64,000 bases of DNA from Escherichia phage TrudiRoth: sequence record MZ501109, one strand, 5' to 3'. This document shows, piece after piece, positions 21,884 to 29,794 of the stretch. The notes below the pieces were generated by a model, which was not told the DNA's origin, searched no databases, and saw only the letters and a program-made list of their open reading frames with translations. A program made the translations under genes and the position numbers. Position 1 is the first letter of the stretch, and each line of letters opens with the position of its first letter.

Positions 21884-22217
21884 GATGGATATTTACACTA
21901 CACCAGCAGTAAACCTGATTGGCTCTTGCCTTGTGCATTTCCGCTTCTTCCAAACGGATGATAGCAAAGAGGAGTATACCTATCCTCTGATGGATTTTCA
22001 GATTGAGGACTTCTTCCGTGAAGTGCGTAATATCTCTGAGAACTTCTATTATGGCATGGATAAGGAAGACTTTGACATTGAGTTCCCTATAATCTCTCGT
22101 TATTTCCTAGAGCAGTCCGACGCTCGGTTTGAGAAGATTGAACACATGGAAGTAGCCTGGGCTATCCAGTTCGAAATTACTGGCTTTGCTCGATACATTC
22201 AAGGTTACGAACTATGA
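21870..22217 (+). CDS. hypothetical protein
   Basis: 115-aa ORF overlapping the previous stop. Confidence 0.45.
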   Translation: MSEAKMDIYTTPAVNLIGSCLVHFRFFQTDDSKEEYTYPLMDFQIEDFFREVRNISENFYYGMDKEDFDIEFPIISRYFLEQSDARFEKIEHMEVAWAIQFEITGFARYIQGYEL

Positions 22218-22309
22218 AATTAAAAGATTATTATATTGGTTGGTTTGTAGGACTAATAGTAGGATTTTCACTGGGCTACAACTTGTATCAACTGATAAAC
22301 TGATTACAT

Positions 22310-22386
22310 GGGGGTGTAATCGAATTGGCATAGGTACTGGACTTAAAATTCAGGTTTTGTGGGTTCGAATCCCACCACCCCTACCA
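22310..22386 (+). tRNA. tRNA with anticodon UAA (Leu?), class I geometry
   Basis: Acceptor GGGGGUG/CACCCCU, anticodon stem CUGGA/UUCAG with loop CUUAAAA, T-arm GUGGG-UUCGAAU-CCCAC, A73, CCA; D-arm poorly paired. Confidence 0.45.
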
Positions 22387-22537
22387 AATTAAGGAAATAA
22401 AATGAAAGCTATTAAGAAAGCACTGCGTAAATTTATGTATTGTCGTTTTCATAGCATCAAGGCTTCAACTAATGGTACTACTTACGATCGCTATGATCCT
22501 AAGTTTGGCTTACATTCTAAATAACTGGAGAAAACAA

Positions 22538-22744
22538 ATGGCTAATCCTGAAATTACGGCACAACGCTTTATGCTGAAAGGAATTATTGCTGAAGCAGGC
22601 ATGACAGAAGAAGTTGCAGATTTTCAAAAGCAATTCCTCAATATTCTCACTCAAGCCAAAGAGCTAGGAGAGAAAGAACATGGCGCGGCTATTATGGCAA
22701 TCACATTGGTTGGGCTTGATCTGGCTGAAGAATCAGGAGTTTAA
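22538..22744 (+). CDS. hypothetical protein
   Basis: ORF opens at 22472; ATG 22538 has RBS GGAG. Confidence 0.4.
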   Translation: MANPEITAQRFMLKGIIAEAGMTEEVADFQKQFLNILTQAKELGEKEHGAAIMAITLVGLDLAEESGV

Positions 22745-22774
22745 CTCCTCCAAGCAGAAATTTTAAAAATGTAC

Positions 22775-22804
22775 TTGCTTTTTACTTAAGATTTCTGCTA
22801 TAAT
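22775..22804 (+). promoter_or_regulatory. sigma70-type early promoter
   Basis: -35 TTGCTT, 18 bp, -10 TATAAT. Confidence 0.6.
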
Positions 22805-27763: not shown

Positions 27764-28097
27764 ATTTATATAAATTGATGCGAAAATAGCTGCCTAGATA
27801 CCAGGTGTATGACGTCTACACTAGCAGAGCTACCGAAAAAGAGATCCTCAGGATAAACGTCGTAGCAAAATTAGTCTGGTATCCATTAATTTAGTTCACT
27901 AAGGTATTAGCTCGACCTAGGACTGGCTGCCAAAAAGCACGATCCCTACGATTTGGGAGAAGTTCTAGATTAGTCCACTAGATTCAGCGGCAACTGAATA
28001 GTGTATCGGGTTTGTGAAGAGCAGCTATTCTCTACTGGCTAATGTCTGAGGTTAGTACGCACACCGAGCTAATAGCCTTAGTAAACTTAAAGAATTT

Positions 28098-28173
28098 GGG
28101 CGAATAGTGTCAGCGGGAGCACACCAGACTTGCAAGTCTGGTAGGGAGGGTTCGAGTCTCTCTTTGTCCACCA
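28098..28173 (+). tRNA. tRNA, isotype unresolved (Ala-UGC or Cys-GCA)
   Basis: Acceptor GGGCGAA/UUUGUCC, D-stem GUGU/ACAC, T-arm GAGGG-UUCGAGU-CUCUC, CCA; perfect anticodon stem CAGAC/GUCUG encloses only 6 nt (UUGCAA). Confidence 0.45.
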
Positions 28174-28188
28174 AATTAAAAAGAATGC

Positions 28189-28265
28189 GCGCGATTGACG
28201 GAATAGGTATACGTGTCAGCCTTAGAAGTTGAATTTTGAGGGTTCGAATCCCTTGTCGCGCACCA
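28189..28265 (+). tRNA. tRNA with anticodon UAG (Leu?), class I geometry
   Basis: Acceptor GCGCGAU/GUCGCGC, anticodon stem UCAGC/GUUGA with loop CUUAGAA, 5-nt variable loop, T-arm GAGGG-UUCGAAU-CCCUU, A73, CCA. Confidence 0.5.
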
Positions 28266-28390
28266 AATTTGATGGTCAGAGTAAATTAAACCTACTATCT
28301 CGGTTGAGCTGTTTTAATGGATTCGAATCCCAGCGAGGCGTAACTGCCTGGCGTGATAGAGGCATCATTCCACTAACATTGGAAAAACTA

Positions 28391-28621
28391 ATGAAACGAA
28401 AATTAAAAAAGTCTTATATAATTAAGATAAATAAGCTACGAAGTAGGGCAAAAGGATGGCCACTTCGAATATTAATTGCGGATAACCATATTAGATACCA
28501 TGCGGAACAACATCATTACAAACAGTGGGAGTCATACTGTCGCTCAAAAGCAGGTCGTTTAGATGGATCTTATGAGCTTCTATTTGGTAAGAAGCCTACT
28601 AGATTAGCTTTAGGTAAGTAA
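28391..28621 (+). CDS. small basic protein
   Basis: First in-frame ATG of track ORF 28229..28621; the upstream part overlaps a tRNA. Confidence 0.35.
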   Translation: MKRKLKKSYIIKINKLRSRAKGWPLRILIADNHIRYHAEQHHYKQWESYCRSKAGRLDGSYELLFGKKPTRLALGK

Positions 28622-28735: not shown

Positions 28736-29251
28736 ATGCTAACACAACAAGAATTAAAATCCGTGTTGTTATATAAACCAGATACTGGAGAGTTTTTCTG
28801 GAAATATAGATCTGATTTAGATAGTCAATGGAATAGTAAATATGCTGGAACTAGGGCAGGATTTATTAATGAACTAGGCTATTGGAAGATAACTCTAGGA
28901 AATACTAGCTGGTTAGCACATCGTCTAGCATTCTTATACATGACTGGGGAAATACCAGATCTAATTGACCACAAGGATCAAGATAAGTCCAATACTAAAT
29001 GGGATAACTTACGAATAGCCACTGTATCACAGAATCAGGCTAATGCTAAATTAAGGGTAGATAATACCTCTGGGTACAAAAATGTAACTTGGCATAAGCA
29101 AAGAAATAAGTGGAAAGTAGAAGTACGTAAAGATGGCAAACTCCATTATGGTGGACTTTTTACAGAACTAGATAAAGCTGTAAATAAAGCTAATAATCTT
29201 AGACGTGAGTTATTCGGGGAATTTGCAGTATATGAAGAGTTTATGGGGTAG
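28736..29251 (+). CDS. HNH homing endonuclease with AP2-like domain
   Basis: Shares AHRLAFLYMTGE, DHKDQDK, NLR and GYKNV motifs with 6460, 39902 and 42058. Confidence 0.7.
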   Translation: MLTQQELKSVLLYKPDTGEFFWKYRSDLDSQWNSKYAGTRAGFINELGYWKITLGNTSWLAHRLAFLYMTGEIPDLIDHKDQDKSNTKWDNLRIATVSQNQANAKLRVDNTSGYKNVTWHKQRNKWKVEVRKDGKLHYGGLFTELDKAVNKANNLRRELFGEFAVYEEFMG

Positions 29252-29341
29252 GTCAATCCAACGGCTGGCGCTGGACTCCGACTTGAAATCGGTTGATCGT
29301 AGTGATACGGTGTAAGGGTTCGATCCCCTTACCTACCTCCA
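29247..29341 (+). tRNA. tRNA-Ser (anticodon UGA)
   Basis: Acceptor GGUAGGU/ACCUACC, anticodon loop CUUGAAA, long variable arm, T-arm AAGGG-UUCGAUC-CCCUU, CCA; 5' end overlaps the HNH gene stop. Confidence 0.7.
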
Positions 29342-29535: not shown

Positions 29536-29794
29536 AAATTCTTGGAATATGCCGGAATTGGTAGACGGGACTGCCGAATAGGTTTACTAGGAACATCCAC
29601 TCCTAGAAATATACCTTAAAAGCGGTTGAGTTAAATGGTATAACTCATGAAGGTTCAAGTCCTTCTATTCCTTGATACATCAATGGCTCAAAGTGTAACG
29701 GTGCTATTTGATGCTCTTGGCAAGACTTCCCCGACATGCGTTCGGGAGTAAGCTGCTAAGACTAGAGTAGAAGAGTTTCAACAAGACAACGATA

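What the first reader, a model, noticed from the sequence alone, without database searches (positions are those of the whole stretch)
22310..22386. Class I (short variable loop) tRNA with anticodon UAA
A 77-nt tRNA with clean acceptor, anticodon and T arms and A73 carries anticodon UAA (reads UUA, Leu), but has a 5-nt variable loop instead of the long arm typical of bacterial tRNA-Leu, and a poorly paired D-arm. It could be an unusual Leu isoacceptor for the AT-rich phage codon usage, or a mis-folded call.
Basis: seen in the sequence. Interest (0 to 1): 0.45.

Follow-up and report, generated by a model that had tools for sequence, protein, structure and literature searches.

The report
Arm-less leucine tRNA of T5-like phage
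This is a real, strongly conserved phage tRNA that reads the leucine codon UUA but lacks the long side arm that textbook leucine tRNAs carry. It keeps every other feature the E. coli leucine-charging enzyme is known to need, so it is most likely a working "minimal" leucine tRNA rather than a mis-call.

Summary
The tRNA at 22310-22386(+) is real: ARAGORN calls tRNA-Leu(UAA) and Rfam scores it 57.4 bits against a threshold of 29. It has a 5-nt variable loop (type I). The "poor" D-arm is the normal tRNA-Leu design: 3 pairs plus G13·A22 and a D-loop AAUUGGCAU in the same register as E. coli leuZ.

It carries the published E. coli LeuRS identity set except the arm: A73, U8:A14, A15-U48, G18G19, A20a and the T-loop partners. 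It is 100% identical in about 290 T5-like phage records. It shows 0/77 variable columns where flanking genes vary at 8-21% of columns.

Its closest non-T5 relative is a type II phage tRNA-Leu(UAA) that differs mainly by having the arm. UUA is the phage's top Leu codon (25% of Leu against 11% in an E. coli sample).

Type I Leu tRNAs are not unique to this phage. About 1 in 10 tRNA-Leu(UAA) in an IMG/VR sample are type I, while Ser and Tyr tRNAs almost never are. They are also chromosomal in many Actinomycetota.

Type I tRNA-Leu is published for Streptomyces and mitochondria, and that work found E. coli LeuRS inactive on the Streptomyces one. Charging here is inferred, not shown. Verdict: new member of a known kind, moderate interest.

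The parts
22310..22386 (+). Whole gene: type I (short variable loop) tRNA-Leu, anticodon UAA, 77 nt with encoded CCA
   Evidence: ARAGORN; Rfam RF00005 57.4 bits; annotated tRNA-Leu in many GenBank T5-like phages
22310..22316 (+). Acceptor stem 5' strand GGGGGUG. It pairs with 22376-22382 (CACCCCU). The first pair is G1.U72, as in E. coli leuZ.
   Evidence: Sequence; Rfam alignment; leuZ sequence
22317..22318 (+). U8 and A9. U8 is the partner of A14 in the U8:A14 tertiary pair, a LeuRS determinant.
   Evidence: Sequence; identity set in PMC9976931 and PMC6614811
22319..22335 (+). D-arm AUCG-AAUUGGCAU-AGGU: pairs A10-U25, U11-G24, C12-G23 and the mismatch G13.A22. The loop carries A14, A15, G18G19 and A20a in the E. 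coli tRNA-Leu register.
   Evidence: Rfam alignment; same register in leuZ; this register is in 32/45 unselected short phage Leu tRNAs against 26/528 non-Leu tRNAs
22337..22353 (+). Anticodon arm CUGGA-CUUAAAA-UUCAG. A36-A37-A38 is the MiaA motif; U34 is a TrmL/MnmEG-type wobble position.
   Evidence: modification determinants from PMC4615657
22344..22346 (+). Anticodon UAA. It reads UUA, and UUG by wobble. It is not a stop-codon suppressor.
   Evidence: ARAGORN and Rfam agree
22354..22358 (+). Variable loop GUUUU, 5 nt (positions 44-48). U48 is the partner of A15 (Levitt pair). There is no long arm.
   Evidence: U48 in 106/108 IMG/VR type I Leu(UAA) and 44/45 other short Leu, against 37.5% of non-Leu tRNAs
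22359..22375 (+). T arm GUGGG-UUCGAAU-CCCAC, carrying U54, U55, C56 and A58, the partners of G18/G19.
22376..22382 (+). Acceptor stem 3' strand CACCCCU
22383..22386 (+). Discriminator A73 followed by genome-encoded CCA
   Evidence: A73 in 106/108 IMG/VR type I Leu(UAA)
28189..28265 (+). Second type I tRNA-Leu of the same phage, anticodon UAG, 77 nt. D-arm ACGG-AAUAGGUAU-ACGU, variable loop AUUUU, A73. It sits where phage T5 has an 85-nt type II tRNA-Leu(UAG).
   Evidence: ARAGORN; Rfam 55.6 bits; T5 comparison

Best explanation
It is a functional phage tRNA-Leu(UAA) that has lost the long variable arm, i.e. a type I tRNA-Leu.

Proposed path, all steps inferred:
1. It is transcribed with the rest of the + strand tRNA/small-ORF cluster and cut out by host RNase P and 3' processing. 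CCA is already encoded.
2. It is modified in the anticodon loop by host MiaA/TrmL-type enzymes.
3. It is leucylated by the host (E. coli/Salmonella) LeuRS.
4. It decodes UUA, and UUG by wobble, during infection.

It supplements a codon the phage uses about twice as often as the host. Its partner tRNA-Leu(UAG) does the same for CUA, which the phage uses about 6-7 times as often.

The arm can be absent because bacterial LeuRS of the E. coli type reads A73 and the D-loop/variable-loop/T-loop core, not the arm or the anticodon. SerRS and bacterial TyrRS do use the arm, which would explain why the phage's Ser and Tyr tRNAs keep theirs.

What is shown: the gene, its fold, its conservation, its identity elements, its relatives and the codon usage.
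For: (1) Bona fide tRNA. ARAGORN and Rfam (57.4 bits) give the same cloverleaf and anticodon.

(2) Purifying selection. It is >=99% identical in 291 phage records. In five Epseptimavirus relatives it has 0/77 variable columns against 107/717 in flanking ORFs (Fisher P=1.2e-5). This holds even where the 86-bp stretch just upstream is deleted.

(3) Identity. A73, U8:A14, A15-U48, G18G19, A20a, U54-A58, U55 and C56 are all present. These are the elements listed for E. coli LeuRS, and E. coli tRNA-Leu variants lacking the long arm stay active (PMC9976931; PMC6614811 introduction). In Aquifex, removing the arm mainly lowers affinity, whereas deleting U48 abolishes charging (PMC2377443). The G1.U72 + A73 end is the same as in host leuZ.

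(4) Ancestry. The closest relative outside T5-like phages is the 87-nt type II tRNA-Leu(UAA) of Pseudomonas phage 201phi2-1. It shares 50/66 positions once the anticodon and variable region are removed. That alignment score (34) is higher than for any non-Leu tRNA in a 790-tRNA comparison set (best 29). The D-arm is nearly identical and the T stem identical.

(5) Family behaviour. Among 108 distinct type I Leu(UAA) tRNAs from IMG/VR, A73 and U48 are each 106/108 and the D stem is 3 pairs + a 13.22 mismatch in 94/108, with compensatory changes. Short Leu(UAG/CAA/CAG) tRNAs that the search pattern did not select show A73 43/45, U48 44/45 and the Leu D-loop register 32/45. Non-Leu tRNAs show 61%, 37.5% and 4.9%.

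(6) Only Leu loses the arm. In a sample unbiased for arm length, Leu tRNAs are 30 short/145 long, while Ser is 0/47 and Tyr 1/23 short (P=4e-4).

(7) Demand. UUA is 25.1% of Leu codons (21.7 per 1000) and CUA 18.6% in the window. A 49-kb E. coli sample gives 10.6% and 2.6%.

(8) Anticodon-loop enzymes do not need the arm. Deleting the whole variable arm does not affect E. coli TrmL, and MiaA needs A36A37A38, which is present (PMC4615657).
Against: - No expression, processing or charging data for this tRNA were found. Phage T5 itself, the experimentally studied relative, lacks the gene and has only a type II tRNA-Leu(UAG).
- Fan et al. 2019 report that E. coli LeuRS did not charge the type I tRNA-Leu(CAA) of S. 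coelicolor. They describe EcLeuRS as charging only type II, and its leucine-specific domain as favouring a large variable loop. However, that tRNA has C48 rather than U48, so it lacks the A15-U48 element.
- One published E. coli determinant, the position of residue 47n in the arm, cannot exist here.
- The single-sequence MFE fold is not the cloverleaf.
- Codon-usage matching is only correlative, and no promoter or terminator signal above chance was found nearby.
Confidence: 0.77

Rival explanations
1. It is a Leu tRNA, but the loss of the arm is itself the adaptation. A type I shape would let the phage's tRNA-Leu escape host toxins or nucleases that pick out class II tRNAs by their long arm, or let it replace host tRNA-Leu destroyed during infection. 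Counter-defence, not codon supply, would then keep it.
For: - Phage tRNAs are documented as escapes from tRNA-targeting defences: PARIS, Retron-Eco7 and P2 Old.
- MenT3, and apparently the abortive-infection toxin AbiEii, prefer class II tRNAs with long arms (preprint 10.64898/2026.01.19.700257).
- Both Leu tRNAs of this phage are type I.
- About 270 phage records (T5-like and some Felixounavirus-like) carry a type I Leu(UAG) at 80-90% identity to the window's allele, against about 54 T5-like records with the type II one.
Against: - No defence system of E. coli or Salmonella known to target tRNA-Leu or the long arm was found in the literature searched.
- The phage's Ser and Tyr tRNAs keep their arms and would stay exposed.
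- Type I tRNA-Leu also occurs as an ordinary chromosomal gene in Actinomycetota, so the shape does not need a defence rationale.
- Tolerance by LeuRS alone explains the Leu-only pattern.
Confidence: 0.12
2. It is not aminoacylated at all. It is a tRNA-shaped RNA kept for another reason, for example as an RNase P/RNase E processing signal punctuating the long tRNA/small-ORF transcripts, or as a stable tRNA-like RNA of the kind annotated in T5.
For: - T5 is annotated with several 'tRNA-like stable RNAs with unknown functions' in the same cluster.
- The window has at least one degenerate tRNA-like element, at 29605-29673, 23.9 bits.
- EcLeuRS failed on a different type I tRNA-Leu.
Against: - A processing signal would not need an invariant anticodon loop with the MiaA motif.
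- It would also not need A73, the A15-U48 pair or a Leu-specific D-loop register.
- All of these are conserved here and across more than 100 unrelated phage type I Leu tRNAs.
- The tRNA scores in the upper half of the phage's tRNAs on the Rfam model.
Confidence: 0.07
3. It is charged by a different synthetase, so the phage partly re-reads UUA as another amino acid.
For: A short variable loop is the norm for non-Leu/Ser/Tyr tRNAs. A35, A36 and A73 are shared with tRNA-Phe.
Against: - G3-C70 excludes Ala.
- There is no long arm and no G73, which excludes Ser.
- A35 excludes Tyr, Lys and Gln.
- U34, C20 and A59 do not fit E. coli tRNA-Phe determinants (G34, U20, U59).
- The body is most similar to Leu tRNAs.
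- UUA is used at Leu-like frequency as the top Leu codon.
Confidence: 0.03

Closest known systems
E. coli tRNA-Leu(UAA), leuZ (type II, 87 nt)
   Same: Same anticodon. Similar anticodon loop (UUUAAAA against CUUAAAA). Same G1.U72 + A73 end. Same 3-bp D stem with G13.A22, same D-loop register A14 A15 N N G18 G19 N A20a N, and U48. 42/66 identical outside the anticodon and variable region.
   Different: leuZ has a 15-nt variable arm (CGGCGUUCGCGCUGU); the phage tRNA has GUUUU. There is no blastn-level similarity to any E. coli chromosome, so it is not a recent host capture.
Type II tRNA-Leu(UAA) of Pseudomonas phage 201phi2-1 (87 nt)
   Same: Closest relative found outside T5-like phages. D-arm AUCGAAUUGGUAUAGAU against AUCGAAUUGGCAUAGGU. 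Identical T stem GUGGG/CCCAC, same anticodon loop, acceptor ..GGUG/CACC... 50/66 identical.
   Different: It has the long arm CGCCCGUAAGGGAUU where the window has GUUUU. Its T loop AUCGAGG is atypical.
Type I tRNA-Leu(CAA) of Streptomyces coelicolor (Fan et al. 2019, PMC6614811)
   Same: A bacterial-system tRNA-Leu with a 5-nt variable loop, shown to be leucylated. A five-nucleotide loop including nt 48 is the minimum for good activity.
   Different: Its loop is ACAGC with C48. It is charged by a specialised ScoLeuRS for which A73 is not an identity element. EcLeuRS did not charge it. The phage tRNA has U48/A15 and A73, the E. coli-type set, and works in a host with no type I tRNA-Leu of its own.
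Animal mitochondrial tRNA-Leu(UUR) (type I)
   Same: Short variable loop, UAA anticodon, and A73 and A14 as the main determinants (PMC9976931).
   Different: Mitochondrial tRNAs have a relaxed, A/U-rich, partly unfolded structure and a dedicated mitochondrial LeuRS. The phage tRNA has a fully canonical elbow (G18G19/UUCGAAU).
Engineered E. coli tRNA-Leu variants lacking the variable arm (in vitro selection and minimalist tRNAs, as summarised in PMC9976931)
   Same: They retain A73 and the D/T tertiary core and remain LeuRS substrates. The phage tRNA looks like a natural version of these.
   Different: Those are laboratory constructs. The primary papers were not available to read here, so kinetic penalties are not known to me.
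Phage T5 tRNA-Leu(UAG), tRNAL1 (type II, 85 nt)
   Same: Same phage family. It holds the same genomic slot (next to tRNA-Ala) as the window's second Leu tRNA. The T5 record notes that it can be converted to an amber suppressor.
   Different: It has a long arm and an unrelated acceptor stem. T5 has no Leu(UAA) gene at all.

Membership tests
tRNA (Rfam RF00005) | Full-length match to the covariance model above the gathering score | tested here: met
   57.4 bits against 29, model positions 1-71/71, no truncation
tRNA (Rfam RF00005) | 7-bp acceptor stem, 5-bp anticodon stem with 7-nt loop and U33, 5-bp T stem with a GTTCRANYC loop | tested here: met
   Read from the sequence and the alignment; ARAGORN gives the same fold
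Bacterial (E. coli-type) tRNA-Leu | Leu anticodon (NAA/NAG) | tested here: met
   UAA at 22344-22346
Bacterial (E. coli-type) tRNA-Leu | Discriminator A73 | tested here: met
   A at 22383; determinant per PMC9976931
Bacterial (E. coli-type) tRNA-Leu | U8:A14, and A15-U48 trans-Levitt pair | tested here: met
   U8 at 22317, A14/A15 at 22323-22324, U48 at 22358
Bacterial (E. coli-type) tRNA-Leu | G18G19 position in the D-loop and A20a, with U54-A58, U55 and C56 partners | tested here: met
   D-loop AAUUGGCAU is in the same register as leuZ AAUCGGUAG; T loop is UUCGAAU
Bacterial (E. coli-type) tRNA-Leu | Long variable arm (>10 nt; class II architecture) | tested here: not met
   Variable loop is 5 nt, GUUUU. 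It is therefore not a canonical class II tRNA-Leu.
Bacterial (E. coli-type) tRNA-Leu | Leucylation by host LeuRS | not testable with these tools
   Needs an aminoacylation assay. The literature points both ways: arm-less E. coli variants are active, while EcLeuRS is inactive on Sco type I tRNA-Leu(CAA).
Type I tRNA-Leu (Streptomyces / animal mitochondria kind) | Leu anticodon combined with a 4-5-nt variable loop in an otherwise complete cloverleaf | tested here: met
   the same architecture is seen in 108 IMG/VR and about 116 bacterial-genome sequences
Type I tRNA-Leu (Streptomyces / animal mitochondria kind) | A cognate LeuRS shown to accept type I substrates | not tested
   The host is E. 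coli/Salmonella. No synthetase gene was looked for in the window.
Stop-codon suppressor tRNA | Anticodon complementary to a stop codon (CUA, UCA, UUA) | tested here: not met
   Anticodon 5'-UAA-3' pairs with codon UUA, not with the stop codon UAA

The most novel reading that the evidence does not exclude
Loss of the long arm is a counter-defence trait. Type I tRNA-Leu lets phages keep decoding Leu codons when host abortive-infection toxins or nucleases that recognise class II tRNAs by their long arm (MenT3/AbiEii-like nucleotidyltransferases or similar) disable the host's tRNA-Leu. Leu is the only class II isotype where this escape is possible, because LeuRS does not need the arm. That would explain why roughly a tenth of phage tRNA-Leu(UAA), but almost no phage tRNA-Ser or tRNA-Tyr, are arm-less.
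Probability: 0.12. Interest if true: 0.75.

Novelty: new member of a known kind. Interest (0 to 1): 0.45.

Why it matters
Reviews state that tRNA-Leu carries a long variable arm everywhere except animal mitochondria. The one bacterial exception studied (Streptomyces) was explained by a specialised LeuRS, with E. coli LeuRS described as type II-only.

Here hundreds of E. coli/Salmonella phages carry two perfectly conserved type I Leu tRNAs built on the E. coli identity set. About a tenth of tRNA-Leu(UAA) genes in a sample of uncultured-phage contigs are also type I.

If these tRNAs are charged in E. coli, they are natural proof that the arm is dispensable for an E. coli-type LeuRS in vivo. They would also be ready-made compact Leu tRNA scaffolds, and a clean test of why class II architecture persists. 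The test is a single aminoacylation assay.

For the window itself the practical conclusion is plain: the call is a correct tRNA-Leu annotation.

Tried and rejected
- Single-sequence folding does not recover the cloverleaf (MFE -24.7 against -20.9 kcal/mol for the cloverleaf, z=-1.2). This is uninformative for an unmodified A/U-rich tRNA and was not used.
- blastn of the tRNA against 5,426 E. coli genomes gave only 23-nt T-arm matches on plasmids. There is no sign of host origin.
- The promoter/terminator scan around the gene was at chance level.
- Phage T5 was expected to provide experimental data, but it lacks this gene.
- Nine full-text literature searches, plus reading of phage-tRNA, tRNA-identity and non-canonical-tRNA papers, found no description of type I tRNA-Leu in phages. 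The phage-tRNA/defence papers read do not discuss tRNA-Leu structure. Absence from this library is not proof of absence.
- G1.U72 was considered as a special mark. It is common in phage Glu, Val, Lys and Ile tRNAs and present in host leuZ, so it was dropped.
- Larkin et al. 2002 (PMC115294) could not be read.
- Suppressor-tRNA and mischarging readings were rejected on the anticodon and on identity elements.

Full report
**1. What is there**

The window comes from a T5-like phage (Demerecviridae). Bases 21900-22800 are 100% identical to E. coli phage Shin27 and 93-99% identical to many Epseptimavirus and Tequintavirus genomes.

ARAGORN finds 23 tRNA genes between 17.8 and 30.7 kb, all on the + strand. 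One is tRNA-Leu(taa) at exactly 22310-22386. Infernal against Rfam aligns 22310-22383 to the whole tRNA model at 57.4 bits (gathering score 29). That places it ninth among the region's tRNA matches. Both tools give the same anticodon, UAA at 22344-22346.

The parts read directly from the sequence:
- acceptor GGGGGUG/CACCCCU, with G1.U72
- U8, A9
- D-arm AUCG-AAUUGGCAU-AGGU
- A26
- anticodon arm CUGGA-CUUAAAA-UUCAG
- variable loop GUUUU
- T arm GUGGG-UUCGAAU-CCCAC
- A73, then CCA

**2. The D-arm is not defective**

The Rfam alignment pairs A10-U25, U11-G24 and C12-G23 and leaves G13 opposite A22. E. coli leuZ, fetched for comparison, has GUGG-AAUCGGUAG-ACAC. That is also three pairs plus G13.A22, with a 9-nt loop in the same register: A14 A15 N N G18 G19 N A20a N.

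The single-sequence MFE structure is not the cloverleaf (-24.7 against -20.9 kcal/mol). I therefore rest the fold on the covariance-model match and on comparative data rather than on energy.

**3. It is under strong selection**

The 77 nt are >=99% identical in 291 phage records. Many of these annotate it as tRNA-Leu.

I aligned five Epseptimavirus relatives over 901 bp. The tRNA has 0 variable columns of 77. The flanking ORFs have 21%, 8% and 11% variable columns. In two of the phages the 86-bp stretch immediately upstream is deleted. Zero of 77 against 107 of 717 gives Fisher P=1.2e-5.

**4. It looks like a Leu tRNA in everything but the arm**

[quoted passage not shown] It states that neither the anticodon nor the sequence or folding of the long arm matters. 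[quoted passage not shown] The introduction of PMC6614811 adds A14. All of these bases are present here.

For Aquifex LeuRS, removing the arm mainly costs affinity, while deleting U48 abolishes charging.

The G1.U72/A73 end is the same as in leuZ.

The anticodon loop has the A36-A37-A38 motif that MiaA needs. [quoted passage not shown]

**5. Relatives**

No E. coli chromosome has a blastn-detectable match.

Outside T5-like phages, the best full-length relative is the annotated 87-nt type II tRNA-Leu(UAA) of Pseudomonas phage 201phi2-1. With the anticodon and variable region removed, the two share 50 of 66 positions. The D-arm is nearly identical and the T stem identical. That alignment score (34) exceeds the score for every non-Leu tRNA in a 790-tRNA comparison set, where the best is 29. 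The main difference is CGCCCGUAAGGGAUU against GUUUU.

The tRNA is therefore best read as a descendant of a type II phage tRNA-Leu that lost its arm.

The same phage has a second type I Leu tRNA, anticodon UAG, at 28189-28265 (55.6 bits). It occupies the slot, next to tRNA-Ala, where T5 itself carries an 85-nt type II tRNA-Leu(UAG). T5 has no Leu(UAA) gene.

About 270 phage records (T5-like, plus some Felixounavirus-like) match the window's type I Leu(UAG) at 80-90% identity. About 54 records carry the T5 type II allele at 95% identity or more.

**6. The shape is a recurrent phage solution, specific to Leu**

First scan. I searched IMG/VR with a pattern fixing the Leu-type D-loop, a UAA anticodon loop, type I spacing and the T loop. 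The scan stopped at its 120-locus limit. ARAGORN called a 74-78-nt tRNA-Leu(taa) in 112 of the 120 loci, with 108-109 distinct sequences. At positions the pattern did not constrain:
- A73 is 106/108.
- U48 is 106/108.
- The D stem is exactly three pairs plus a 13.22 mismatch in 94/108.
- Pair types vary in a compensatory way, for example G-C 58, A-U 21, U-A 13 and C-G 7 at 10-25.

Unselected tRNAs in the same loci. Short Leu tRNAs with other anticodons, which the pattern did not select, show A73 in 43/45, U48 in 44/45 and the Leu D-loop register in 32/45. Short non-Leu tRNAs show 61%, 37.5% and 4.9% (P from 4e-7 to 3e-26).

Second scan. It gave 117 confirmed tRNA-Leu(UAA): 11 type I and 106 type II. 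In those loci Ser tRNAs were 47 long and 0 short, and Tyr tRNAs 22 long and 1 short. Leu overall was 30 short and 145 long (P=4e-4).

So roughly one phage tRNA-Leu(UAA) in ten is arm-less, while Ser and Tyr tRNAs essentially never are. This is the pattern expected if the arm is lost only where the synthetase tolerates it.

**7. Demand**

In 49 long ORFs of the window (11,358 codons), UUA is the commonest Leu codon: 25.1% of Leu, 21.7 per 1000. CUA is 18.6%. In 55 annotated genes of a 49-kb E. coli K-12 stretch, the figures are 10.6% and 2.6%, with CUG at 52%.

The phage's two Leu tRNAs read exactly the Leu codons most enriched relative to the host. This is consistent with codon supply but is only correlative.

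**8. Context**

The gene lies 6 nt after a 29-codon ORF and 15 nt before a 40-codon ORF, all on the + strand, inside the long tRNA/small-ORF cluster. Promoter-like and terminator-like matches nearby are at chance level. Co-transcription and nucleolytic processing are inferred.

**9. Comparison with what is known**

Type I tRNA-Leu is known in animal mitochondria. Since Fan et al. 2019 (PMC6614811) it is also known in Streptomyces coelicolor, whose tRNA-Leu(CAA) has the loop ACAGC.

That paper matters here in two ways.
- It removes any claim that the architecture is unprecedented.
- It reports that E. coli LeuRS did not charge the Streptomyces type I tRNA, and it calls ScoLeuRS the only prokaryotic LeuRS able to charge both types.

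This is the main evidence against my explanation. It is softened because the Streptomyces tRNA has C48, so it cannot form the A15-U48 pair that E. coli LeuRS requires. For ScoLeuRS, A73 is not even a determinant. The phage tRNA is built on the E. coli rule set.

The paper does not mention phages. Neither does a 2020 review of non-canonical tRNAs. My searches found no description of type I tRNA-Leu in phages.

**10. A wider observation, only partly followed**

A stricter version of the pattern, run on one genome per bacterial species, also hit the 120-locus limit. ARAGORN confirmed 121 short tRNA-Leu(taa) genes (116 distinct sequences) across these loci. They come mostly from Actinomycetota (Nocardia, Mycobacterium, Nocardioides, Gordonia, Arthrobacter and relatives) and Planctomycetota. 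In 98 of the 120 loci this was the only tRNA called in the up-to-8-kb locus.

The neighbourhood is conserved and housekeeping: DivIC, DUF501 and Ppx/GppA, then a UDG-family or pyridine-nucleotide-disulphide oxidoreductase gene, then the tRNA. So type I tRNA-Leu(UAA) is an ordinary chromosomal gene in these phyla, beyond the single Streptomyces CAA case in the literature.

Many of the IMG/VR type I tRNAs resemble this actinobacterial body type (C13.A22, loop NNAGU). The T5-like tRNA belongs to a different body type (G13.A22, loop GUUUU).

**11. Rivals**

- Counter-defence (probability about 0.12). Arm loss would evade toxins that recognise class II tRNAs; MenT3, and apparently AbiEii, prefer long-arm tRNAs. 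This is compatible with everything seen. However, no enterobacterial system of that kind was found, and the Ser and Tyr tRNAs keep their arms.
- Non-charged tRNA-like RNA (about 0.07). This is hard to square with the conserved anticodon loop, A73, U48 and the Leu-specific D-loop.
- Mischarging (about 0.03). This is disfavoured by the absence of other synthetases' determinants.

**12. Verdict**

The call is correct and the tRNA is almost certainly functional. Its unusual feature is real, and it is shared with a sizeable minority of phage Leu tRNAs and with some bacterial phyla. It is a new member of a known kind (type I tRNA-Leu). The point of interest is that it operates in a host whose LeuRS has been described as type II-only. 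A single aminoacylation assay would settle that.

Noticed in passing
window 28098-28173 (+): A tRNA-Ala(UGC)-like gene (G3.U70 present) with an 8-nt anticodon loop, CUUGCAAG. ARAGORN calls it 'tRNA-??? (tgca)'; Rfam gives 40.2 bits. The T5 homologue (L007 7715-7789) has the normal 7-nt loop CUUGCAA, so the window has one inserted G. It could be a sequencing or assembly error, an inactivated gene, or an anticodon-loop variant of the kind proposed to resist anticodon nucleases.
   Followed up: partly
window 28189-28265 (+): A second type I tRNA-Leu (anticodon UAG, 77 nt, variable loop AUUUU, A73) in the slot where T5 has an 85-nt type II tRNA-Leu(UAG). This allele is rare: one GenBank phage record at 95-99% identity, about 270 at 80-90%.
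   Followed up: partly
window 29247-29337 (+): A class II tRNA with anticodon UGA (Ser) that ARAGORN did not call. Rfam matches it best with the tRNA-Sec model at 38.3 bits, below that family's threshold of 47. It probably corresponds to T5 tRNA-Ser1(UGA).
   Followed up: no
window 29605-29673 (+): A weak tRNA-like element (RF00005 23.9 bits, below threshold) with almost no D-loop and a long anticodon-region insertion. It is reminiscent of the 'tRNA-like stable RNAs' annotated in the T5 tRNA cluster.
   Followed up: no
L006 (Escherichia phage APCEc03, KR422353.1 about 1293-1370): A chimeric sequence made of the 5' half of the Leu(UAA) gene fused to the 3' half of a Leu(UAG) gene. The acceptor strands no longer match and ARAGORN makes no tRNA call. 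It looks like a deletion by recombination between the two type I Leu genes.
   Followed up: partly
window 27900-28500: The best full-length GenBank phage matches here are only about 86% identical, although 21900-22800 is 100% identical to phage Shin27. The tRNA cluster of this phage is mosaic.
   Followed up: no
L130-L249 (bacterial genome contigs; e.g. L130 2387-2453, L134 2739-2805, L165 4331-4397): Chromosomal type I tRNA-Leu(UAA) genes (74-77 nt, A73, U48) in many Actinomycetota and Planctomycetota. They usually stand alone in a conserved DivIC / DUF501 / Ppx-GppA / UDG or oxidoreductase neighbourhood. This extends the published Streptomyces tRNA-Leu(CAA) case.
   Followed up: partly
L009-L128 and L255-L362 (IMG/VR contigs): Phage tRNAs follow bacterial discriminator rules closely: Asn/Asp G73, Cys U73, His C73, Gly mostly U73, Ser mostly G73. 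G1.U72 is frequent only in isotypes where pair 1:72 is not an identity element: Glu 68%, Val 52%, Leu about 45%, Lys 32%, Ile 28%, and 0% in Gly, Ala, Thr, Tyr, Pro and Asp.
   Followed up: partly
H120-H123 (Felixounavirus-like phages TH10, BPS17L1, vB_EcoM-Ro111lw): Matches of about 74 nt to the window's type I tRNA-Leu(UAG) at 78-82% identity, annotated tRNA-Leu in at least one record. Arm-less Leu tRNAs therefore probably also occur in an unrelated group of enterobacterial myoviruses.
   Followed up: no
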